Part shown: piece after piece, positions 22,714 to 56,800 of the stretch
Layout: every line of letters begins with the position of its first letter
How positions within the stretch are numbered: position 1 is the stretch's first letter
From: Cirrosporium novae-zelandiae
Lineage: Eukaryota
Reading direction: 5' to 3'
NCBI GenBank assembly: GCA_026023565.1
Contig: JAPETS010000046.1
Location: 124,001 to 187,699, forward strand
DNA: 63,699 nt
Program-made: the position numbers and the translations under genes
The notes under the pieces: model-generated
The model's database searches: none
What the model was told of the DNA's origin: nothing
Seen by the model: the letters and a program-made list of their open reading frames with translations, nothing else

Positions 22714-24502
22714 AATTGGTGCAGTCAGCCATCGATCACCGACGTACACAAGTGGAGTTGAACTCTGCAGCTTGAAATGCTGTCCTCGTGCTAACGATTG
22801 AAAGAACTATCTTTACTCTATTGATGAGAGAAAGTGAGGTACATGGAATTGTGCAGCAAGAAAGACGAGGTCAACCTCGCCCGTGCCTTTGGTATCCGAT
22901 AGGCACACACATTCTTTTTTCTGCTGTACAACGTCAGCTAGGTAAGTAATCACGACGATCACGAGACCAAGATACCCATATTTGCATTGCGCTGGTTACG
23001 TTGCATTTGATTTCTTTTGTTATTTCTTTTTGAATGCTAGAAGTGAATAAGATTGACATTGTGTTATCACGAACGATGGGGATTGAATGGAAATGGAAAC
23101 GGTCACGGAATGGAACATGGAAAGCATGGCTTTTGTGATGTATGTAATTATTGGAATGGAATGGAATTCCCAAGACATGGATATGAGATACGGGATATGC
23201 ATTATTACTGATTGGGTAGCATGAAGTAGTATGGATAACATGGATTGCAAGAAAATTGAATTCTGGCAATTGATATTTACTAGTAGGTGCTTACTCGCTT
23301 GCTTTATTGGGTTCAAATTACTATGCTGCACTTTGAGTTGGTTCTTGATAATATGTCTATTCCCTCATTCGTGCATTTGTCAGTAGTTGGAAGAAACCTA
23401 ACATAGGTGGGTGGAAGAGGCGTAGACAGAGAAGACATGCATAATTAACCGCCTCAAATTTTATTAACAAACAAGAAAGCAAAAAAATATACTGGCCAGC
23501 TATAATCGTACGATATTCCAGCCCAACCGTAACCACTATACCCTAGTTACCCATCAACTATATGCTCACTTTAATAACACAATATAACACTCACAACGTA
23601 ATATCTTCTATCTACGACAGTTTTGTTGCTACGCTTAGGATATAGCTTTTATATCTAGAATCTAAGGTGTGAGCTTAGCTATCCATAGATAGGGGTCATG
23701 TAACCTAGATCACGTGTATGTGGCTTGGCATCCATAACAACTCCATCCAGGTAATTGGCTCAAGAGCACACAACCACTTGTTTTCTGACAAGAATTAGAT
23801 GTACATTTCACATGGCATTTATATGCGTGTTCGGCACAAGGCTAGATATTATTAAAGCCATACTGCCCACAATCTCCGGGATCTTTTTCCCTCCACTTTT
23901 GTATATCTACATAATACGTGTCGACTTGTTAACCTTGTGTTGTGATAGCTATGCCGCTTTAATCGTTCTTGGACTATGAATCTTTCTTACACAAATTTCT
24001 AAGGCAACATTGGGGATTAACTGCACTGAACCAGTCTGCATTGTTGAAGTGAATATCATCCTGCTACCTACCAGCTTTGTCTAGTGTAGCCTATTCATAA
24101 CGCTCCTTTAAGCTAGTCTCCTTCAGCCTTTTCAGAATCATATGCTTTGTTTGTTCCCCTGTTGAACGATGGGACGAGCACTTGCAGTGCCAACATTGTT
24201 TTCCGCACTAGAGCTGTTCGTATCTATGATGAGGCTGAAGGATTTCCCCTCCATCAAATTGAAGGGTATAACATTCCCTGCGGTTATTATCACAATAATC
24301 CGAATAATGTGCTCTGTTCAGACTATATTCTAGCATGAAATCGGGTATATAAGACTCTTGAATTACCTCAAGGAATAACCATACAAGTCAACGCTGCCTA
24401 TCCCCCTGCTTCGGATTCCCCCTACATCCCTGAACTTTAGCACTTGCTATAAGTATTCACTATCACTTTTACTCCTTTATTTCTTCACTTGATTGAACCG
24501 CA

Positions 24503-27500
24503 ATATCAAACTTTAAAGCATTAGGTGTCGTGCTACAAGCCTTTCCTACGCTAAGACCGATTCTCAAACAGAATGAGGAGGAATATCTTGAGCTATCAAG
24601 GGCCCTTTTTGCCGAGCAAATAGCCTTCTATAGTATTATTGAATGCTTGCTTCGGTCCATTGACCAACCTGAGTCAAAAATTGGCCGACTTCTAGAAGGT
24701 GAAGGGTGGGACGATGGAGACCTCCACGAAGCGCTGGCAGTTGTGTTGACCTCTAAAACTTCTATGGAGACTTTTAAAGAAGCGGAAACAATGCTCCAAG
24801 GTTCGTTACGCATGAATATACTTGTAAGTCATTTATATCTCGATATATTCTTCCACAAGACTAATTCTATTATTTATACTAGATACCAGAACTAATCCTA
24901 GGAGATTACGAACAAAACCTTCGAAAATTCTTAGATATCATCAAAAACTGAAACTACATGCTCAGAGGACTTGTTTTTGATCGCCGCTATTTGAAAATTT
25001 GGCCTGCGCTTAATGTTGGTGAAGTTCACCAAAATGCGACAGGTCTTTTTGACAATCTAATCGATAGATTCTCTTCATGTTACCCTAGACATAGTGTTTT
25101 CTTTCAATTGGAATTACGGCCTCGAAATAGATCCTGGCTAGCTTCTGGAGAATTCGCATCTTCACCGCCTCCTTCATGCTTCCGACTACTTTTTATATGC
25201 CATAGCGCCGTTTATCCTAATGCTGGAGAATTAAAACTTAGAGTACAAGATGCGGTAGTTACGAAACTAGAAATTTTGGAGCCCGCGCAACAGCCCCCCA
25301 GGCTCTTGGGTCCTATCGGTGCAAAAAAGAAATCCATTACCGCTACGAGCGAACCCGAAACAACTTCGTCAGATGAACATTCACAAATTCATCACATTCA
25401 GAATTTAAGTCAATTCTTGGAGGATATTGGAACCCAGGATACCTCTGCACCAGGCTTAGTTGATGGTCCTCAGGTAAAATATCAGATATCTGTTGAACGT
25501 TCTTTGATACCTGAGGAGCAAGGTTTCTGTGTTTCTCTTGGGGACATATTGACGTCAAGTATAGCAAAATATCAATTCAACCGATCTCGCCGCCTCTATG
25601 TGGGTGCAATTATCACGTCTAGTGTGATACAATTATGTGGAACCCCATGGCTGAAGCAAGATTGCCTAAAAGCGGATGAAATCTACTTCAGACAAGAGGG
25701 TGATCAAATCCAATTTAAGAAGCCATATCTATTTCAAGAGATGAAGCCTTCTCGTACTAATGTTTTCTTTGGATCCTTTGTAGATCGGTCTTCAGATTGG
25801 CTTAGGATTAATTGCGACACTGCCAACAAGCTTATTTTCGCGCTTGGGATTCTTCTAATTGAGTTATGGACGGGGGAAATGTTCCCTAGTCTTCATCGAA
25901 ACGATGAATGGAACAATTATGACAGCCTCAAAGATGACCCTGACGGAGTTAGTCGACAAATCGCTCTTTCTAAAGCCGACATACTGGAAAAAGAATCCGG
26001 CTTCGATTACGCCAACATGATCAGAAAATGCGTTGCACCCCTTTTGGATTTCAAAAGGCTTGAAAAGAATGCAATATCTTTCCAGGAAACCGTATACACT
26101 GAAGTTCTATGTCCACTACAAAGATACCTCTCTACTTTTCTAGATAGCACACAGGGAGTTAAGGATAAGGAACCGCCCCTAAAGCAATCGGCAATTTCTG
26201 GAAATTCTTCTGCAATAGTAGCAGACAATGTTCTAGAAATATTTTTTGATCTCATCATTCAAGAAAACTGTCTTGGACGTCTTTTCAAAGAAGCGTTCGA
26301 GATGAAAGAAGGCCCAGAGCGATTCAAGGCCAATATTCTATCCTTGCTGAATTATTATATCAAGGGACTCAGACCCTATGTTCGAGGCGAAGTAGAAATG
26401 GAAATTATAAGAGTGATTTTCAATGGCATAGATCTAGTGGCACAAAGGCTTCATAATTTCTATGGCAAGGTCGCCCCAGAAGAGAGAACACAACAAGATC
26501 AAGAAAAGGATCTCATAGAGGAAGGAGGTGTTATGCCATTGTGTGGATATAACCACCACAGTGAGGAAGATCAAACGAGCCCTGAGCCCTTGAAACTGTC
26601 TATCTGCTAGCTTGAAGATGTCCTGATCTGTCGACCTCCGTTTATCGACCTTCGACTTGGCCTACGCAAACTTGTGGCCCATAAACCAATGGAAGCTATT
26701 AAATACGAAATACTCTGCGGGTATCATAAATTTTCACCCAGGAAATATACTGCAAAATTCGAAATCGCTAGTGAAATCGGGGCATACATCAATAAAGAGC
26801 TTGATGAAAGCCAGAATCTAAGTTCAGTATTGACAATTTCCGGCAATGCACGAAATGCATATGCGACGACGTACGCTCAGTATGCGGCTTGGCAATGGCC
26901 CAACATTGATATCAAGTTGATTACAAGTCTGGGAGCTACGATGAAAGATCGTAAGAATCATTGTAAGAGTTTAGAGAAAATTAATGGAATCTTAAACCTA
27001 ATATATCACAGGTCTCAAATTAAATTCCCAAATTATCAATATTTCACCCAGCGGGAATGGTTATATACTAAATACAGAAGGGGATTTAAATTCACTAACT
27101 GAAATTGCCCAAGAGATTGTATGGCTCTCGACTGCCTGTCGACCCCCCAGCTCGGGTAAACTCGGCTTATCGAAGTTCAGGTTCATAAATATGGAACCTA
27201 GGACTTTCTCGCTAGACCTTCGCGACCTGGAGGATGTGAAGCTCACACGTGAAAACCTATGCTGGAATACACTCTTCAAAGGCACTGTTATTGCAGAGGG
27301 CTTTCCTATTCCTCAACGCAATGGACAAGTCGTCGGTATAGAGCTACCCTTTCAAATGATGGTGAACCTTTCCCGGATATCTTACGCTGCTATTTACGAC
27401 AACAAAGTTGTTTTAAGCGGGTTTTCGACTATGCTCTTCCCAACCGCCATCGAACCAATACCTGGCGAACAAGACTCTGTACAGTAGCATTTCATTAAGG

Positions 27501-28836
27501 AGAAAGATAAGCAAGATAGGCATCAGCAGATATCAACTGCCGATGCACTTGAGGCCTCTGACAAAACTTGGATAGAAATTTCCGACGCAGCTTTGCTTCA
27601 AGAAGCTAGAACCTTTTTAGGCTTCTGTAGAAAGGCTAATATTCATTTGGGGACAAAGAGCAATTATGCGGATATTGATTATTCTTCTCTGCAAAACTGC
27701 CGTCCGAACTTAGGGGTCTCTATTCATTCAATGGGTATAGGATCATCAAGGATTGGCTTTTTCGGCGTCATGCCCACGGTGGAGACTCGCTATCCTTCCT
27801 CCTCTAAAGAAATGAGGGCAAATATAAAGCAAGATAACTTCGATGATATTATTTCTTGGATGCGTCTTCAGCCAACTATTCTGTATGATTCATCCAATCA
27901 GCGTGCGTGGCTTGTGTCCATGATTAGTGTCACCCTTCATATGGTCCATAAATGGATAGAAAGGAACGCACAAAATGTGAAGCTACCATACGCACACCCA
28001 ACTTGGAACGGGACCCAGGAGGCCTATAATATTCTTACTCAAAATCGTAATCTTGAATTAAGAAGATCGTCAGGCACTGCGAAGCCGTACCGTCTAAGGG
28101 ATTTAGTAAAACGGCTTTGGGCATTCCTACACGCATGTGATAACGGCAGACCCGGTACTGGAAGAAGGCCTTCTTTAAACACAGAGGGTGGACATCCCAG
28201 GGTTTTTGGCTGGGAGTTTATGGATATAGTCGAGGCTCGAGCTACAGCATATCTTGAAATGCGTCAGGAAACCTTAAACAACGGTGGCTGCGGATGGGAT
28301 CTCCTAACAAGAGATGTCTTAGTACTTACCTTCCAAAATCTTGCCGACGTGATTCTTCCAGCGGCGTCAGTCCCTCGTTGTTTCACTTGGAACCCTCCAG
28401 AAGCAGGAAGAAATGCCTTACCGCTAGCATAGCTTGCTTGCGAGAGATGTCAAGGAAACGAGGTTGCGGGAAATCGTGCACTCAGCTTACAGAACATGCC
28501 AGTTGGCAGCGTTCTGGATCGCACCTCTTCAGAAACTGCCATCATGAACGTACTAGGAGATGTCGCAAGATTCCCCAGCGCTTGTGTGGGAGACTAGATT
28601 CTCATATTCCTCGACTAAGACCTCCACCTCGAAAGGGGTCTGTCGTTTTTGGCATACCGCAGGATGTGCAAGAAAGTAATGGTACTACGCGACGTCTACA
28701 GAATATTCGTTGTATAGTTACCAGGGCTAGGAGTAGACTGGAAGACGATCTGGTGTAGACCGACCAGACCGAGGGCCTTGGTCTGGTTGGTCTGGTCTAT
28801 TCCTAACCCTGATAGTTGCGAGGTGGTTAAATTAAG
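24503..28836 (+). pseudogene. Large degenerate accessory gene: helical N-terminus, DUF7580-like region and a conserved unknown C-terminal domain
   Basis: Probable lost start ATA-TCA-AAC-TTT-AAA-GCA-TTA-GGT-GTC-GTG (resembles MSGFExxGVVL). Introns 24824-24882 and ~26963-27011. In-frame stops at 24949 (TGA), 26608 (TAG), 27485 (TAG); frameshift near 28420. Motifs QLCGTPWL, LIFALGILLIELW, EIAQEIVWLSTACR, GIELPFQMM, LYDSSNQRAWLV, GWEFMDIV. Confidence 0.75.
28722..28811. mobile_element. 90-bp hAT-type MITE / non-autonomous DNA transposon
   Basis: TIRs CAGGGCTAGGAGTAGAC / GTCTATTCCTAACCCTG (2 mismatches in 17), near-palindromic interior, flanked by 8-bp direct repeats ATAGTTAC (28714-28721) and ATAGTTGC (28812-28819). 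Confidence 0.8.
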
Positions 28837-50330: not shown

Positions 50331-51857
50331 ATGACCGTCCATCCATCCACCCTGAGCTCGCGTGGCCGTGAACTCGCAGCACATTCGATACGAGACCTGT
50401 TCAGAACTGTCATGAGTAGTCCATATGATCCAGACACAAATCCAGATGGCTTCATCAACATGGGCACCGCAGAAAACGTACTCCAAGATCTATCAACAAC
50501 ATTAGGACGACTGCTAAATGTCTTTTGATATAGTATTCAATGCTCCAAGACGTTACCGATTTTGTTGATAGCCAAGTCAGTTCTCTAGGAATACAACCAA
50601 AAGCTTGCACTGAATACTGGGCAGTTCAAACTCACTGCTACCAACTTTACGTATGGTGAAGGGCCATGGGGAACAGCGAGGCTACGAAAAGCCATGGCAA
50701 ACCATATGCACCGCCAATTTCCTACCTACAAGCCATTAGATCCTGAAAATATACTCTTTGCAAGTGGTGTCACAGGTATCTGTCAGATGCTAGGGTTCTC
50801 CATCGCCAACGAGGGTGACGGTATCCTGTTTTCTCGGCCTGTTTATCAAGCCTTTAGACATGATTTCTCAACCCTTCCTAAGTAAGCATTATGACGTCTT
50901 GGGGCTGCATGATTATATTATATAATCTCATACTTATATATCCAGGGTCGTACAAGTATTTACGAGCTTCAATGGAGCAAATCAATTTGACACACATGCA
51001 GTAGATGCGTATGAAAAAGCTCTTCTCAACGCTCAAAAGCAAGGCATCACTGTCCGTGGTATGGTTCTTTGCAATCCACATAACCCCCTCGGCAAGTGCT
51101 ATCCAAAAGAAAGCATAATAAGCATCATGAAATTTTGTTCAGAATACAAAATCCATCTCATAGTCGATGAGATATACTCCCTTTCCGTCTACGACATCCA
51201 GGATCCCGAAGCCGTGAAGTTTACCTCGGCACTTTCGTTCGACTCTACTGAATATATCGACAAGGAGTACCTGCACGTAATGTACGGTATGAGCAAAGAC
51301 ACCGCATCTGGTGGGCTCCGCCTCGGTTGCATCTACACAGAAAACAAAGAGCTCCTGGACGCCATGGGCACGATCAGCAACTTCCACTGGTCAGGAAGCG
51401 CTAACGAGCTCTCCGCAACTCTAATGCTAGAAAACCAAAAATGGATGGATGATTTCCTCAAGACCAGCCGCGAGAGACTCGCCGCACGGAACAAACTCGC
51501 TCGAAAGATCTTGGACGATGCCGGGATCCATTATGCCAAGGGAGCCAACTCCGGCTTCTTCTTATGGCTCGATCTTCGCGGTTTCCTACCACCCCCCGAA
51601 GATAGCATCAAACCTCAAGATAACTGGAAGGGAGAAGAGACTCTCGTGAAGCGCATGGTAGCGAACAAAGTCTACCTATGCGATGGCCACTGTCAGTCCG
51701 CCGAGGAGGCTGGCTGGTTCCGGGTTATTTTCTCGCACGAGGAGCGAGCCCTCAAGGAAGGGTTAAAGAGGTCCGCATGCTTCATTCCATTTCCATTTTC
51801 ATTGTGAAGCTAACGCGTAAGTCAACCAGGATGATCGAAGCTGTAAAAAAACGATAG
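50331..51857 (+). CDS. PLP-dependent class I/II aminotransferase, ACC-synthase-like
   Basis: Introns 50478-50533, 50576-50624, 50882-50945, 51771-51829. Motifs NPDGFINMGTAEN, CNPHNPLG, DEIY, PLP lysine YGMSKD, GLRLG, GWFRVIF. Confidence 0.92.
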
Positions 51858-52464
51858 AAAAATGGGGGTTTGGGGGCGAGCTTGGAATAAACGATGGTGA
51901 CCCGCCCGCCTAATATTCCATTTCATTTCGTTCCCTACTTGGTAATCTCTCTATCTCTATACGGCAAAAAAAAAAAGACAAGTGTGGTTACGGGTTGGAG
52001 TTTCAAATTATCTATCTAGACATGATTTTATACGTACATATATGATCACATACATATATACATATATACATAAAAAAAACCCTTCTTCAATTAGAATACT
52101 TATTTGTATAGTCTACCCTGACCCCTTTTTCCTATCTAAGATCTTGAATTGTTCCTATCCATATTCACCTCCCCCAACCCCTCAGATAAAAAAAGAAAAA
52201 AAGGGAAGGGAAGAAGTACTAATAAAATATTAGCAGATCGTAAGTTAGCTAGATACTACAGATGAAAAGAAATCCAATGCAATAGCCACCATTTTAACAA
52301 TATATTATTTATATTCTTAGGTTATACATCGTATTAAAAGGGGCCAAGCCCAATAAACTAAAGTAAAAAGACCGAAAGGGACATAGGAATACACCTAGTC
52401 GTCTAGATATTTACTTATATGCGTTACCTCGCCTATCCTGCATCCTTTCAATAGCCAATAGTCC

Positions 52465-53020
52465 CCCCGGTAGATAGCCGAGGAAGCAAATTTTGTTGAT
52501 TGACAACCACCAAGATAACCAACAAATTCTTAGCAATTCACGAACAAGCAACTACACCGAATTGTCTATTGAACTGACCACGAATAAAAAATTCATAGCC
52601 CCCCGAGCTAAGGATACATACTTAGGATGATACTGGATCATGACATCCATTATGGTACTATATTGGTGAATCTTTTCCGAGAGCTTATAAAGATTCCGGT
52701 GGATTGTCGAATCCCCTTTACGTGCCTCATATTGGACTTGCACATCAAGAACAGATGCAAGGACCTCTGTAAGGCTTCTACATTTGGAGTTTACTATTTA
52801 TTTCTGTTTTGTTTTGTCTTTCGATAATTCGGATTAGAACGCCATCAAGGTCTTGTTGAAAACCTCTTTAGTCGGGTCAGATCTATGAGCAGTTATTTGG
52901 GGTCAGCTACAATTTCCTCAAAATGTTGTTTAGTTGTTCAAAGACGATGCCAAGGATGTCTCACTAAGTTATATTGTCGGCCGCAGTGTACCAAGGAATG
53001 AAAGCATTCAGATTTGTCAT
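52465..53020 (-). pseudogene. Truncated remnant of a fungal NACHT/NLR-type gene (N-terminal helical domain only)
   Basis: ATG 53020 MTNLNAFIPWYTAADN, then a probable intron with damaged donor, then SDPTKEVFNKTLMAF*SELSKDKTKQK*II...YEARKGDS...IMDVMIQYHPKYVSLARGAMNFLFV, then GTCAGT donor, then VVVNQQNLLPRLSTG, after which similarity ends. Resembles the 'DVLVQHHPEYVSLAWGAMKFLF' motif I recall from fungal NACHT N-termini. Confidence 0.65.
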
Positions 53021-53399
53021 AGGTCGACTCTCCGGACTGACAGAACGACAGGATTGATTCTCAAGCCAAAGAACGGGTACCTGAGTTTAATTTTGGATGA
53101 AAGGTTGGAAAGTGATGATCCATTATTCTATTAGAACCACTTGAATGCACAGAATTTGGGATTGTGAGGCTATAGATAGATACCACTGCGCACACTTCGT
53201 TACCGCCTGAATTTTTGTGCCACTACCCTCAAGACCTCTAGAATGAAGAGTATAAGATTGGGGGTTGTAACGAGGACACAGAGGTCGCAGAATACACAAC
53301 CAACAAGCATAAAACTCCATGAATCGGATCTCCAACTGTACCTCAAACTTTGTCTTCAGATATTCCTCAGCCTCAACCACTTAACGGCATAATACTATC

Positions 53400-55741
53400 C
53401 TCTACCTAATCCTGAGATTGGGACGCGCTCTATAGATACAACATCCTGCAACCGAAATCTACACACTTACTCACATTAAAACTACGAGAGAACAAACTAC
53501 AACCCCCCTTAACTTTGCAGACCACCCACCCTTCTATTATCGATTTCCTAAACACAAGTACAGACCTTTTTACAACCGAACCCGATACCACTGATCCAAT
53601 TCTAAGAAATCTACGCAGACAGTCGGAAGAGTCGGAAAGGTCGCAAGGCTCGTTATACACTAGCTTAGGACTTGCTTCTCCCAGTCCTATAGATATTCCA
53701 GTCATAAACCCTCACTCCTCTAGCCATAGTATAGCCGAACTGAGTAACAGTACTCTACTAGAGGCTCCTTTGACACTACAGAATGCGATCGGTCAGACTG
53801 GTCCTGGCTTACGGTCTCTAGAACATGCCTCCATAGAAGATTTGAGTCCGAGCCCTCAGCTCAATGCCCTCTTATCTATTGATACTAGTAGTTTAGGAAT
53901 TTCGGACGCATTGGTTGTGAGTCTTGAAGCCCTAAAGGCATACATACTCGACTTGCAACAGAAAGCAAAGACCCTAGAGAACTTGGGATGGCAGCGAGAA
54001 CCATCGAGGTTTCAAATCATCCACCGGATAAAGCAAGGAGAGAAGTTCCAGTTTTACTTCGATACCCCCCAGTGGACGATAGAGGAAAACGATTCGAAGG
54101 CTTTGAGAGGTGGTCTCCCACTGTTAAATGTCCCATCATACTTAGACAAGTATCCCAAAGTCGCCTTCATTGTATACCGAAACTATGATGTTTTGGCCAT
54201 GAGACGGGATAATTCTAATGACGAAGAGAGCGACATCATGCTGCAAGTCAAGCACACTGCAGAGAGTCTTTATCATACTACGAAAGATTTTACTGCAGCT
54301 GTTACGGACTTCTTAAAGCTGGACTTGGACTTCTCGGACGTATCCGGTAGTTCCAGGTCCTCTAAAGTACTCTCAGCCCCGTACCTAGTTATTTACCATA
54401 CACGAAATGTCATAGAACAGTATTTACACACATTACCCGATCAGAAACGAAAGCAATTCCAATTATTGCTCGACTATGTTCTTTCTGAATATGCGGAAGA
54501 GTATAGGACTGTCGATTCTCTACTTGGTAGGGGCAAAATCACTTATCTATATATCAAGTATCTCTTCAAACTAGGGGAAGTTCTTGTAGAAGGAAAGGAC
54601 CAAAACGTCAGAGGGGTTTTCTCCGAATCTTGGCTTGGTTATTCGCCCATTTCGCGTAACCAGTCATCCAGAAACGGTTCCAGGATGGAACGCTATGAAA
54701 TTGCTGCTTGGCCATTGGAGATTGATGCTCATGATCTCTCAGAGAAAAGTATTGACAAATTGAGTCTGCGACTTCTAAAATTTGTGAACGAAGACGTGGT
54801 CGATCTGCTTAAACGCAGGGGAGACACATTTTGGAAGTGTTGCATTAGAAATTTTGTCTCTTACCATGAAGATAAGGATCGTGAATTTCATGATTCTAGC
54901 GATGACTAGTACATGATAGATCTCAGAATGTATCACGAACTCCACCCCAGCAACAACAAAGCTGATGAGGTCGATACTGGTGACCTCGGAGCTGAAGCAA
55001 TGGAGCAAGACAGCCCTCCCAACCCTGAATTTGTTTATCTGGCCCCTCTGACGATCAAGGGCTACAATCTAAAGAGAAAAAAGTGGTTGGACTTGCAAGT
55101 AGACAGGATAGCTGAAGTTGTGTGGAACAAAAAAGCATTTAAGAGGTTGGTACTTGATGAGAAGACTAAAGAGCTAATCGAAGCACTCATAAGCAATCAA
55201 CTCAACGCAGAGAAATCGACCGATCTAATAAGTGGGAAGGCCAACGGGTTGATACTCCTCCTTCATGGTGGCCCTGGAACTGGAAAGACTCTCACCGCAG
55301 AAAGCGTTGCCAAAATTGCCGAGAAACCTTTATATCCTGTTACCTGCAGTGATATCGGGATGGAACCAAAAGACGTTGAAAATTACCTCGAGTCAGTTCT
55401 TAGCCTTGGCAGAACCTGGGGATGTGTGGTTTTGCTTGACGAAGCGGACGTGTTCTTGGAGCAACGCAGCCTTGAAGACCTACGGCGGAATGCACTAGTC
55501 CCAGTATTTATAAGAGTTTTGGATTATTATGATGGACGGAAGACAAATTCGCAATGCTATTACCATCGCACGACAATATGCGAAGTGGAAAAAAGAGCGG
55601 TCGATTTATCCCCTTTTAAAAGATATCATTGAGAGGTCTGGAAGATTTGATGTGTATATTGAACAATTGAACGGTGGGTATACGCAGGATCAGCTGGCTG
55701 AAAATGAAGGGTTAAGGCTATCAACGCAGGTTGAAATCTGA
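53400..55741 (+). pseudogene. Fungal AAA+ ATPase (DUF7025-type family), disrupted
   Basis: Walker A HGGPGTGKT, Walker B VVLLDEADVFL, C-terminal GRQIRNAITIARQYA. In-frame stops at 53407, 53413 and 54907 (DD*YMID). A deletion with frameshift after LDYYDG (~55535) removes the expected TSNR...AFxSRI segment. Confidence 0.88.
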
Positions 55742-55744
55742 TGC

Positions 55745-56800
55745 TTATTGACTTAGTTTTTGTCTTTAGTGGTTTCAATTTAATTAATCTGTTTTGTTCC
55801 ATTTACGGAGCTGTGCAAGATCCCCCCCCCCCTAAGAGCTTTTAGGTTATTTATATACTCTTTCACCCGGAATCATTCAACCAACTCCCCAAATATATAA
55901 GGACGACGACGACGATGACACCCTTATTTACAAGCCATCATACTTTTTGCAAGTAGAGGTAAACCTTACACCATTTTTTTTATAAAGCGAAAAAGAACTA
56001 AGTAATATCACGCAACCACCCTCACCCCCTTAATTAAATCCATCATCTCATCTCAACTCATCACACTTCACCTATTATTAACCTATTAAAACAAAACAAA
56101 ACCATCATTAGAGAAAGCAGGGAAAGCGTAAACCCGCAAAAATTACTATAAACATTTATTTATTTAGTAGGTGGGTAAGGTAGGTAGATGGGTAAATAGA
56201 TAGGTAATAATGTGTACAGTATAAAAGGGTTTCCCTTTATCCTTTTTTTGTCGGTTTTGAGACTTTGTTTTTATGAGGTAGAGCAAAGTAGAGTAGAGTA
56301 GGGAAAATGGAGTAGGTATATAAAGTATCCCGTTTTGGTGTTTTGTTTTCCTTCAGTAATTTAGTTGGATGGTCAGTTAGTAGTTAACGTTTAAGAGTAA
56401 GAAATGAGGAACATGATATTGAATATAAATAACAAGAATAACAAGAATATATATATAAATATATATATATACAACACAAAAGAAAGCGGAAGGATGTGGA
56501 AGGGGGAGATAGATATGTGTAGATATAGGTGTAGATGAATAACGAAGGCGCACGCATAGAATACATTTGATAACAGACGACAAGCTGTGTGTTGTGCTGT
56601 GCTCCATCTGTCTATATGGGATAGAACAGAACAGAAGAAAAGACGCCTGATCCCCCCCTCCCCCCTTAGTCTCAATTCCACGCTCACCCCCCCCACTCCA
56701 GCATTAAAAAAAATATGCTTCCTAGAATACATTTATTTATGCCTGCCTTGTCCTGTTTTATCTTATCCCTGGTAGAGTAGCATAGCGCCTTGACAACTTG
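55745..56800. repeat. AT-rich low-complexity tract
   Basis: Poly-C, (GAC)n, (GGTA)n, (TA)n. Confidence 0.75.

What the first reader, a model, noticed from the sequence alone, without database searches (positions are those of the whole stretch)
52465..55741. Head-to-head NACHT-type remnant and AAA+ ATPase: a co-decaying candidate two-gene module
Seen: a minus-strand relic (ATG 53020, two in-frame TAA, truncated near 52465) points away from a plus-strand AAA+ ATPase pseudogene whose frame is traceable to within ~400 bp of it. Both are dead and bracketed by low-complexity DNA. Known: fungal NACHT proteins are NLR-like non-self receptors, often linked to partner genes. Inference: the two formed a divergently transcribed sensor plus ATPase unit that was lost together. 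I know of no functional description of such a pairing. The ORF track shows only a 63-aa piece of the relic.
Basis: partly seen in the sequence, partly recalled or inferred. Interest (0 to 1): 0.75.

Follow-up and report, generated by a model that had tools for sequence, protein, structure and literature searches.

The report
Dead copy of NLR-like/AAA gene pair
The two broken genes are the remains of one copy of a head-to-head gene pair, an NLR-like protein without a working nucleotide pocket plus an AAA ATPase, that recurs across filamentous ascomycetes and that I found described nowhere.

Summary
On the minus strand, 53020-52543 is the first ~135 codons of a DUF7708 protein. It has its original ATG, a frameshift and in-frame stops (two TAA), and its last three quarters are deleted. 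On the plus strand, 53416-55741 is a DUF7025/AAA/AAA_lid_13 ATPase pseudogene with one TAG, a ~15-codon in-frame deletion, a ~70-codon frameshifting deletion that removes sensor-1 and the arginine finger, and no ATG in its first 261 codons.

The pairing is not chance. In the AAA clade that holds the window's copy, 23 of 28 assessable, dereplicated metagenome loci carry a DUF7708-family gene next door, 18 of them divergent. Three named genomes have adjacent locus tags.

The partner is not a canonical NACHT receptor. It is ~550 aa: a DUF7708 helical domain, a coiled coil and a STAND/AAA+-fold domain with no Walker A, and no repeats. A sister AAA subclade pairs with full DUF7708-NACHT proteins.

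The function is inferred: an NLR-like two-component switch whose ATPase acts in trans. The relic is more decayed than the ATPase, so the two did not clearly die together. Seven literature searches found no description of the pairing.

The parts
52966..53020 (-). Relic, original start: ATG 53020-53018 and the first 18 codons (MTNLNAFIPWYTAADNIT) in the original frame, followed by two stops after a frameshift
   Evidence: Matches the family N-terminal consensus M-x5-F-x2-W-Y
52543..52914 (-). Relic, rest of exon 1 of a DUF7708-family gene in a shifted frame. Stops at TGA 52905-52903, TAA 52836-52834, TAA 52800-52798 and TAG 52554-52552. Ends at the conserved WGAMKFLF motif, where intact relatives have an intron
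   Evidence: tblastn E 8.9e-34 at 52% identity; profile positions 18-133 of 551, iE 3.8e-38; Pfam DUF7708 50.2 bits; intron position in relatives
51808..52542 (.). Place where exon 2 of the relic (about 1.3 kb in relatives) should lie. Only 735 bp of low-complexity DNA remain before the aminotransferase gene, so exon 2 is deleted
   Evidence: No profile match to positions 134-551 anywhere in the window; microsatellites; aminotransferase ORF 50926-51807
53021..53415 (.). Remnant of the shared upstream (bidirectional promoter) region between the two genes
   Evidence: Lies between the relic's ATG and the start of the open ATPase frame. In the intact pair L001 the ATG-to-ATG distance is 1122 bp
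53416..54906 (+). ATPase pseudogene, N-terminal part: variable region and DUF7025-type N-domain. No ATG before 54199; ~15-codon in-frame deletion at 54712
   Evidence: 63% identity to P0003 and 57% to P0004
54907..54909 (+). In-frame TAG where homologues have Arg (DDRYMIDL)
54910..55536 (+). ATPase pseudogene, linker and first half of the AAA domain. Walker A GPGTGKT and Walker B LLDEAD are kept; ends at ...LDYYDG
   Evidence: Pfam AAA 48.6 bits, profile positions 1-95 of 131; alignment
55532..55536 (+). Deletion junction. 'ATGGA' is shared by the codons for ..DG and for MDG.., which suggests a microhomology-mediated loss of about 70 codons (sensor-1 TSN, Arg finger, first half of the lid) with a frame change
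   Evidence: (profile 743-810 missing)
55532..55741 (+). ATPase pseudogene, C-terminal half of the lid domain in the +1 frame, with stop TGA 55739-55741
   Evidence: tblastn 70-80% identity to homologues' C-termini; AAA_lid_13 E 0.0038, 18 bits, below the cut-off of 27

Best explanation
SHOWN. The region holds the decayed remains of one copy of a conserved head-to-head two-gene module of Pezizomycotina. Gene A, the minus-strand relic, belongs to a family of ~500-600-aa proteins. They consist of an all-helical DUF7708 domain (weakly like the Goodbye-like NACHT_N domain of fungal NLRs), a long coiled coil, and a STAND/AAA+-fold nucleotide-binding domain. That domain keeps a Walker-B-like hhhhD-x-E but has no Walker A, and no repeats follow it. 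In short, gene A is a truncated, P-loop-less NLR-like protein. Gene B, the plus-strand pseudogene, belongs to one clade of the fungal DUF7025-AAA-AAA_lid_13 ATPases. These have intact Walker A and B, but acidic residues where Msp1 has its aromatic pore loop. The two genes share about 1 kb of upstream DNA and have diversified together. In this window gene A has lost exon 2 and carries stops and a frameshift. Gene B carries a stop, two deletions and no start codon.

INFERRED. The pair works as a split NLR-like switch. The partner supplies an effector or adaptor head (DUF7708) and an oligomerisation scaffold (the inactive STAND domain). Having no nucleotide switch of its own, it depends on the neighbouring AAA ATPase, which sets its assembly state in trans by holding it off or by loading and activating it. 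The likely output is regulated cell death or non-self response, as for canonical fungal NLRs. Once one gene is lost the other is of no use, which would explain why both are dead here.
For: Recurrence.
- tblastn with 27 DUF7708-family proteins hit 27 of 80 metagenome loci fetched with the ATPase alignment.
- All 27 hits lie within 4 kb of the ATPase. None lies in the 346,713 bases further out.
- In the starred clade (SH-aLRT 98) that holds the window, 26 loci are paired and 6 are not. Outside it, 1 is paired and 13 are not (Fisher p=3e-6).
- After dereplication the counts are 23/5 against 1/9 (p=1e-4). Eighteen of the 23 are divergent, with gaps of 795-3265 bp.
- Of the 5 unpaired clade loci, 3 have 5'-truncated ATPase genes.
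- The window's nearest assessable relatives, L001 and L003, are both divergent pairs. L001 has an intact 818-aa ATPase ORF and an open two-exon partner.

Named genomes.
- Adjacent locus tags: E0Z10_g1563/g1564, LQ347_001756/001757 and Triagg1_10264/10265.
- JGI ids within 2-4 of each other in three more species.
- 23 partner hits share their organism and longest-contig length with an ATPase hit (compared by hand).

Other points.
- No third conserved gene in 20 paired loci.
- Co-diversification: Mantel r=0.63, with 0 of 5000 permutations as high. Nearest neighbours agree in 10 of 20 pairs.
- Partner fold: AF2 pLDDT 77. Residues 318-522 match Cdc6/Orc1 (2qby_B, Z 13.2, rmsd 3.6 Å, 171 aligned), ORC5, TnsC, CED-4, Dark, MalT and NRC resistosomes.
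- None of 44 family members has GK[ST] at the P-loop column, while the Walker-B-like D is kept in 40 of 44 (my count from the printed columns).
- Atlas clusters of the family carry NPHP3_N in 14-30% of members.
- The sister subclade L064/L068 pairs with canonical DUF7708-NPHP3_N-NACHT proteins that have APPGAGKT and IIVDGLDE.
- ATPase family: 39 of 40 have GxxxxGK[ST]. The closest solved sequence is Msp1 (E 3.7e-8).
Against: Nothing here shows function, binding or expression. The mechanism rests on gene linkage and domain logic alone.
- The correlation of the distance matrices could partly reflect shared species history, and nearest neighbours disagree in 10 of 20 pairs.
- Two full-length ATPase genes of the clade have no partner in view. 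L015 has 10 kb on both sides. L031 has 7.5 kb upstream but only 114 bp downstream.
- Five paired loci have other orientations: 1 tandem upstream, 2 convergent and 2 tandem downstream. A shared promoter is therefore not obligatory.
- The link between DUF7708 and death-inducing Goodbye/MLKL-like domains rests on sub-threshold NACHT_N hits in 4 of 44 members and on passages of PMC9815663.
- Foldseek alone gave no PDB match at E<=0.001.
- The ATPase lacks the aromatic pore loop, so a simple 'unfoldase threads the partner' picture may be wrong.
- The unequal decay of the two window genes argues against simultaneous loss.
Confidence: 0.65

Rival explanations
1. The pair is real as a neighbourhood, but the two proteins do not act on each other. 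They are kept together only by a shared bidirectional promoter or by riding on the same small duplicating segment.
For: Gene linkage is the only direct evidence. Other orientations occur in 5 of 27 paired loci. At least one full-length ATPase has no partner within 10 kb (L015).
Against: The linkage holds across several fungal classes and down to about 35-45% protein identity, which is much longer than neutral synteny of a random gene pair would usually last. The same pairing logic appears in a second ATPase subclade with a different, canonical NACHT form of the partner. The two families' distances correlate. Partner-less copies are mostly truncated.
Confidence: 0.13
2. The module is a selfish poison-antidote or drive-like element. 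The DUF7708 protein is a killer and the AAA ATPase is its neutraliser, and the pair spreads and decays like other fungal selfish loci.
For: The family is patchy and multi-copy, with decayed copies here and 5'-truncated ATPase copies in L014, L016 and L045. There is tight two-gene linkage with no third gene. The DUF7708 head is weakly similar to Goodbye-like domains.
Against: No transposon, repeat or RIP signature surrounds the window copy. The window's neighbours are ordinary housekeeping genes. There is no evidence of toxicity. Here the putative poison decayed more than the putative antidote, which fits either model.
Confidence: 0.1
3. Two unrelated pseudogenes lie side by side by chance.
For: Both are dead and lie in a gene-poor, low-complexity patch.
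Against: The recurrence statistics and the adjacent locus tags in named genomes. No partner hit was found in 346,713 bases of flank more than 4 kb from the ATPase genes.
Confidence: 0.02
4. The genes are alive, and the apparent lesions are introns or assembly errors.
For: The deposited annotation calls a 914-aa protein across this region (P0002). Fungal genes have introns.
Against: That model is a chimera. It splices the aminotransferase onto the ATPase's N-terminal ORF and stops at the TAG. The lost stretches are conserved core residues, namely the sensor-1/Arg-finger block and a block of the N-domain; they are not insertions that could be spliced out. Three quarters of the partner profile is absent. 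A second assembly is identical at depth 351.
Confidence: 0.02

Closest known systems
Canonical fungal NACHT NLRs with Goodbye-like/NACHT_N heads (NWD-type), and NLR/effector neighbour pairs such as NWD2/HET-S (PMC4344463, abstract only; PMC9815663, passages)
   Same: A helical N-terminal head followed by a STAND-fold nucleotide-binding domain. Sub-threshold NACHT_N hits. The functional partner is encoded next door. A sister subclade's partner is a true DUF7708-NPHP3_N-NACHT protein.
   Different: The family of the window's relic has no Walker A, no Pfam-level NACHT and no WD40/ANK/TPR repeats, and is only ~550 aa. Its neighbour is an AAA ATPase, not an amyloid-motif effector.
Bacterial iSTAND ternary systems: MoxR AAA+, vWA and an inactive STAND protein (Kaur et al. 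2020, PMC7159879, passages read)
   Same: A catalytically inactive STAND domain carries an N-terminal helical adaptor or effector domain and is genetically coupled to a separate AAA+ ATPase thought to act as its switch or chaperone.
   Different: The ATPase here is nearest to classic-clade AAA proteins (Msp1, Rix7, Afg2, katanin), not MoxR. There is no vWA or any third conserved gene. The module is eukaryotic and made of divergent monocistronic genes. No homology between the systems was shown.
Msp1/ATAD1 and other classic-clade AAA proteins
   Same: Best sequence match of the AAA domain to any solved structure (5w0t, E 3.7e-8). Walker A, Walker B, sensor-1 and Arg residues are conserved in the family.
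   Different: Msp1's pore loop 'KWYG' aligns with 'KPEE'. The family has a large DUF7025-containing N-domain with no match found and its own lid family, AAA_lid_13.
Plant head-to-head sensor/helper NLR pairs (as summarised in PMC12258605, passages)
   Same: Two functionally split components encoded head-to-head and sharing a promoter region.
   Different: There both genes are NLRs. Here one is an AAA ATPase. The same paper found head-to-head NLR-NLR pairs to be rare in Sordariales (13 of 225 two-NLR clusters), and none of the passages I read mentions NLR-AAA pairs.
Cdc6/Orc1 and ORC5 initiator AAA+ domains
   Same: Top structural matches of the partner's C-terminal domain (Z 12-13, rmsd 3.2-3.7 Å, 160-175 residues aligned).
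   Different: Only 9-13% identity. There are no winged-helix or lid parts and no P-loop. CED-4, Dark, NRC and MalT lie about 1.5-2 Z below, so the fold search alone does not tell STAND from initiator clade.

Membership tests
Pfam DUF7708 (PF24809) family, for the relic | Match to the family profile above the curated cut-off | tested here: met
   50.2 bits against a cut-off of 25, E 3.1e-13, profile positions 3-42 of 146. All 27 longer relatives, 44 of 44 in A5, and 76 of 78 by precomputed Pfam carry it.
Canonical NACHT NLR (STAND NTPase receptor), for the relic's family | Sequence-level NACHT/NPHP3_N nucleotide-binding domain | tested here: not met
   None of 44 members reaches E<=0.01. One of 27 has NPHP3_N at 22.7 bits, below the cut-off of 24.8. 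Atlas clusters list NPHP3_N in 14-30% of members. The relic itself has lost this part.
Canonical NACHT NLR (STAND NTPase receptor), for the relic's family | Walker A [AG]xxxxGK[ST] at the P-loop | tested here: not met
   None of 44 aligned members has GK[ST] at the loop after strand 1; the consensus there is G-T-x-K-x-R. In contrast, L064 and L068 have APPGAGKT.
Canonical NACHT NLR (STAND NTPase receptor), for the relic's family | STAND/AAA+ three-layer nucleotide-binding fold | tested here: met
   Model residues 318-522 match Cdc6/Orc1, ORC5, TnsC, CED-4, Dark, NRC and MalT at Z 10.9-13.2 and rmsd 3.1-3.9 Å. Foldseek's best E-value is only 4e-3.
Canonical NACHT NLR (STAND NTPase receptor), for the relic's family | C-terminal ligand-sensing repeats (WD40, ANK, TPR) | tested here: not met
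   The proteins end about 30-60 residues after the nucleotide-binding domain. No repeat family was found by Pfam. A search for longer forms found none, which is weak evidence.
Fungal DUF7025-AAA-AAA_lid_13 ATPases, for the plus-strand pseudogene | AAA (PF00004) domain with Walker A and B | tested here: met
   48.6 bits against a cut-off of 21.2, but only profile positions 1-95 of 131 because of the deletion. GPGTGKT and LLDEAD are present.
Fungal DUF7025-AAA-AAA_lid_13 ATPases, for the plus-strand pseudogene | DUF7025 N-domain and AAA_lid_13 lid | tested here: inconclusive
   The window copy has no DUF7025 hit at E<=1 and AAA_lid_13 at 18 bits, below the cut-off of 27. Both are hit by deletions. 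Homologues at 45-63% identity carry all three domains, and the alignment is collinear.
Substrate-threading classic AAA unfoldases (Msp1, Vps4, p97 type) | Aromatic-hydrophobic-Gly pore loop 1 | tested here: not met
   In the phmmer alignment Msp1's 'dkwyges' pairs with 'tkpeeven'. G-D-I-G-T-x-P-E-x-V-E is nearly invariant in the family.
Bacterial iSTAND-MoxR-vWA ternary systems | MoxR-clade ATPase plus a vWA co-chaperone gene | tested here: not met
   The nearest solved sequences are classic-clade AAA proteins. There is no third conserved gene in 20 paired loci. The definition is taken from PMC7159879.

The most novel reading that the evidence does not exclude
Filamentous ascomycetes carry a widespread, undescribed class of two-component NLR-like immune or cell-death switches. 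In it the NLR has given up its own nucleotide switch (P-loop lost, repeats lost), and a dedicated, pore-loop-less AAA ATPase encoded head-to-head controls its oligomerisation in trans. This would be a eukaryotic counterpart of the bacterial inactive-STAND systems, caught in an evolutionary series from full DUF7708-NACHT plus AAA pairs to truncated pairs.
Probability: 0.3. Interest if true: 0.85.

Novelty: new variant of a known kind. Interest (0 to 1): 0.72.

Why it matters
Fungal NLRs number in the hundreds per genome, yet only a handful have a known partner or mechanism. Here a dead locus led to a conserved partnership between an NLR-like protein family and a large, wholly uncharacterised family of fungal AAA ATPases (DUF7025/AAA_lid_13).

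If the coupling is functional, three things follow.
- It gives both unknown families a testable role.
- It shows that an NLR scaffold can hand its ATP-driven switching over to a separate motor.
- It provides a eukaryotic parallel to bacterial inactive-STAND conflict systems.

It also has a practical side. The deposited annotation fuses an aminotransferase with the pseudogene, so this locus is mis-annotated in the public record.

Tried and rejected
- Complex prediction: Trichoderma aggressivum partner P0292 (548 aa) with residues 105-555 of its neighbour ATPase P0043. Score 0.00, verdict 'no answer'. This is neither for nor against binding. Only the N-domain piece was tried, and the alignments were not used by the tool.
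- Whole genome of the window: none is held, so paralogues in the same genome could not be searched.
- RIP as the cause of decay: the composite indices are negative for both genes.
- PDB by sequence: the partner profile gave 0 hits at E<=10. The full-length ATPase profile gave 0 hits at E<=1e-5.
- Fold of the ATPase N-domain: the wide structural search listed only AAA-domain matches (model residues 524-798, Z<=9.9).
- Longer, fused forms of the partner: none found among 7999 scored candidates of 1008-2875 aa. This is weak evidence.
- Third conserved gene: none. The only other recurrent ORFs are antisense frames inside the ATPase gene.
- RNA evidence: no RNA holder was listed. The only holder is the probable source run.
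- Atlas look-up of the ATPase N-domain: the machine was unreachable three times.
- Earlier findings of this scan: nothing on this genome, and no note holds DUF7708 or DUF7025.
- Literature: DUF7708 gave 0 papers. DUF7025 gave 0. AAA_lid_13/PF23232/PF22942/PF24809 gave 0. 'Fungal NLR / AAA ATPase / gene pair', 'NACHT / AAA ATPase / divergently transcribed / Pezizomycotina' and 'Goodbye-like / AAA' gave no paper on this pairing in the listings and passages I read. The supplementary neighbour tables of PMC9815663 (S2, S4) and the supplementary table of head-to-head NLR pairs of PMC12258605 were not opened and might list such neighbours.
Full report
WHAT IS THERE

The window is fungal. A 914-aa database protein that is 99% identical to part of it is named by its source as a metagenome-assembled Cirrosporium novae-zelandiae protein, which belongs to the Xylobotryomycetes. 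Around the finding lie ordinary genes: an aminotransferase at 50926-51807, and a Med26/IWS1-like gene and Nup54 downstream.

On the plus strand one frame is open from 53416 to a TAG at 54907-54909 and then on to 55536. A third piece follows in the +1 frame to the stop at 55739-55741. Read through, it is 63% identical to an intact 774-aa protein of Hyaloscypha (P0003) and 57% identical to P0004. In all, 915 relatives scored E<=0.001, and almost all of the 120 listed carry DUF7025 + AAA + AAA_lid_13.

Aligned with homologues, the window copy has four defects.
- A TAG where the homologues have the R of DDRYMIDL.
- A ~15-residue in-frame gap at 54712, inside the N-domain.
- A loss of profile positions 743-810, which hold the sensor-1 'TSN', the arginine finger and half of the lid. 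The frame changes at 55532-55536, where the five bases ATGGA belong to both sides. This is the signature of a microhomology-mediated deletion.
- No methionine before residue 262 of the frame.

It is a pseudogene. A contig built by another assembler from the probable source run is identical over 52400-55800 at depth 351. The lesions are therefore not an error of one assembler, although this check is not independent of the sample. The deposited gene model is a chimera: it splices the aminotransferase onto the pseudogene's first ORF across the relic.

On the minus strand the ATG at 53020 opens 'MTNLNAFIPWY...', which fits the N-terminal consensus of the family found below (M-x5-F-x2-W-Y). After a frameshift the homology runs on in another frame to 52543. 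tblastn gives E 8.9e-34 at 52% identity, the family profile covers positions 18-133 of 551 with iE 3.8e-38, and Pfam DUF7708 scores 50.2 bits. The stops are TAA 52836-52834, TAA 52800-52798, TGA 52905-52903 and TAG 52554-52552. Nothing in the window matches profile positions 134-551. The homology ends at the motif WGAMKFLF, exactly where intact relatives have a conserved intron. Only 735 bp remain before the next gene, so exon 2 has been deleted.

IS THE PAIRING REAL?

I fetched 80 metagenome loci with an alignment of 27 ATPase homologues. I then searched them with the 27 DUF7708-family proteins of at least 240 aa from the exhaustive search (371 hits, the best 150 listed, the longest 575 aa).

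Twenty-seven of the 80 loci hold such a gene. It is always within 4 kb of the ATPase and never in the 346,713 bases further away. By orientation, 22 are upstream and divergent, 1 upstream in tandem, 2 downstream and convergent, and 2 downstream in tandem. Nineteen loci have at least 3 kb of upstream DNA and no hit, and 34 are too short to judge.

I built a tree of the AAA+lid region from 80 rows, that is 79 loci plus the window. L072 was dropped for coverage under 0.6. The method was quick IQ-TREE with LG+G4. A branch with SH-aLRT 98 separates 57 rows, which comprise the window, 21 of the 22 divergent pairs and all five pairs of other orientation. Inside that clade 26 loci are paired and 6 are not. 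Outside it 1 is paired and 13 are not (p=3e-6). After removing near-copies the counts are 23/5 against 1/9 (p=1e-4).

Of the five unpaired loci in the clade, three (L014, L016, L045) have ATPase genes that lack their 5' half. These are further wrecks, in which one deletion could have taken the partner and the start of the ATPase. L031 has almost no downstream flank. Only L015 is a clear solo gene. The window's own eight-row subclade (98) contains two assessable loci, L001 and L003, and both are divergent pairs. L001 has an intact 818-aa intronless ATPase ORF and an open two-exon partner, with 1122 bp between the two ATGs. No third gene recurs in 20 paired loci.

Named genomes give an independent check. 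A search with the relic's best full-length relative (P0122) returned 78 proteins of 335-600 aa. Compared by hand with the ATPase hits:
- three species have strictly adjacent locus tags (Xylaria hypoxylon E0Z10_g1563/g1564, Umbilicaria vellea LQ347_001756/001757, Trichoderma aggressivum Triagg1_10264/10265);
- three have JGI ids 2-4 apart (Daldinia bambusicola, Xylaria arbuscula, Daldinia caldariorum);
- in total 23 partner hits share their organism and longest-contig length with an ATPase hit.

By my own knowledge of their taxonomy, the named species span Sordariomycetes, Leotiomycetes, Dothideomycetes, Eurotiomycetes, Lecanoromycetes and Geoglossomycetes.

The two families have diversified together. 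For 20 dereplicated pairs the protein distance matrices correlate, with Mantel r=0.63 and 0 of 5000 permutations as high. Nearest neighbours agree in 10 of 20. Seven paired loci were left out of this test: three duplicates (L019, L034, L044) and four with short or weak partner pieces (L020, L035, L053, L068). Shared species history could produce part of the correlation.

WHAT ARE THE TWO PROTEINS?

The partner. All 44 aligned members carry DUF7708. None reaches NACHT, NPHP3_N or NB-ARC at E<=0.01, and 4 give sub-threshold NACHT_N hits. An AlphaFold2 model (P0139 with 21 sequences, pLDDT 77.3) shows a bundle of very long helices (residues 12-262), a poorly predicted linker, and an alpha/beta domain (residues ~318-522). 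Foldseek gave no PDB match at E<=0.001; its best was 4e-3. The second-look aligner, however, gives Z 10.9-13.2 at rmsd 3.1-3.9 Å over 150-175 residues to Cdc6/Orc1, ORC5, TnsC, CED-4, Dark, MalT and plant NRC resistosomes. That is the AAA+/STAND nucleotide-binding fold.

At the loop where the P-loop should be, the family has G-T-x-K-x-R. None of 44 members has GK[ST] there, while a Walker-B-like hhhhD-x-E is kept in 40 of 44 (my count from the columns printed). The proteins end shortly after this domain, no repeats are found, and a search for longer forms found none, which is weak evidence. Atlas clusters of the family carry NPHP3_N in 14-30% of their members. The partner is thus best described as a truncated NLR-like protein with an inactive STAND domain.

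A second ATPase subclade (L064, L068; L075 is too short to judge) is head-to-head with ORFs of 1441 and 1371 aa. These carry DUF7708 + NPHP3_N (E 2e-34) + NACHT, with APPGAGKT and IIVDGLDE. The L068 ATPase is an intact 715-aa DUF7025-AAA-lid protein. L064 had been scored 'none' by tblastn, so the count outside the clade is an underestimate.

The ATPase. The family keeps Walker A in 39 of 40 members, as well as Walker B, sensor 1 and the arginines. The nearest solved sequences are Msp1 (E 3.7e-8), Rix7, Afg2 and katanin. Where Msp1 has its pore loop KWYG, the family has an almost invariant acidic stretch, T-x-P-E-E-V-E. Canonical substrate threading is therefore doubtful. The first ~100 residues are disordered. 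The N-domain (~100-560) is mixed alpha/beta, and its fold was not resolved.

HOW IT MOST LIKELY WORKS (INFERENCE)

A STAND domain normally switches between monomer and oligomer by exchanging its own nucleotide. A partner that has lost the P-loop and the sensor repeats cannot do this alone. Yet it is kept for long evolutionary times next to a dedicated active ATPase. The simplest reading is that the ATPase supplies the switch in trans, either by holding the partner off or by assembling it. The DUF7708 head would be the output end.

DUF7708's only sequence link is to NACHT_N. Passages of PMC9815663 class NACHT_N as Goodbye-like and describe it as overlapping MLKL-like death domains. This parallels the bacterial iSTAND-MoxR-vWA systems defined in PMC7159879 (passages), but membership fails: the ATPase belongs to a different clade and there is no vWA gene.

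I put about 0.85 on 'a genuine functional two-gene module' and about 0.3-0.4 on this specific mechanism.

DECAY IN THE WINDOW

The relic has 3 stops in 115 aligned codons, a frameshift, and has lost three quarters of its length. The ATPase has 1 stop in 640 aligned codons and two deletions (p=0.012 for the stops). The partner probably died first and the ATPase followed. This fits dependence of one gene on the other, but it is not simultaneous loss.

NOVELTY

No paper in the searched library holds DUF7708, DUF7025, AAA_lid_13 or their accession numbers. Three topical searches and the passages I read in PMC9815663, PMC12258605 and PMC7159879 do not describe an NLR-AAA pairing in fungi. PMC12258605 looked only for NLR-NLR head-to-head pairs. 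Supplementary neighbour tables were not opened.

Noticed in passing
window 50926-54909: The public gene model (P0002, 914 aa, Pfam aminotransferase only) is a chimera. It joins the aminotransferase to the ATPase pseudogene's first ORF through a false intron of about 1.6 kb that spans the relic, and it ends at the TAG.
   Followed up: yes
window 24497-28758 (+): A chain of ORFs in two frames is separated by in-frame stops (24952-26610 is followed directly by 26611-27102; 27002-27487 by 27488-28432). The first carries DUF7580 (E 1.7e-14). This may be another decayed or intron-rich large gene.
   Followed up: no
L064:1027-5349 (-) and L068:4419-8531 (-): In another ATPase subclade the divergent neighbour is a full DUF7708-NPHP3_N-NACHT protein of 1441 or 1371 aa with an intact Walker A. 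This is a canonical-NLR version of the same pairing.
   Followed up: partly
L014:7815-9627, L016:4899-6231, L045:3660-5066: These ATPase genes of the paired clade lack the 5' half (profile coverage starts at position 384, 462 and 384 of 882) and have no partner. They are probably further wrecks of the module.
   Followed up: partly
ATPase family (P0043 residues 617-627; window about 55340-55375): The stretch aligned with Msp1's aromatic pore loop is an almost invariant acidic motif (G-D-I-G-T-x-P-E-x-V-E). This is unusual for a classic-clade AAA protein.
   Followed up: partly
L003:4996-7535 (+) and L003:2296-3807 (-): In the window's close relative L003 the ATPase is split into two overlapping ORFs, and the partner's tblastn piece holds two stops. 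I could not tell whether these are introns or a second decaying pair.
   Followed up: no
partner genes in L001, L018, L022, L027 and others: A conserved intron sits directly after the WGAMKFLF motif (about residue 100-145). The window relic ends at that same point.
   Followed up: partly
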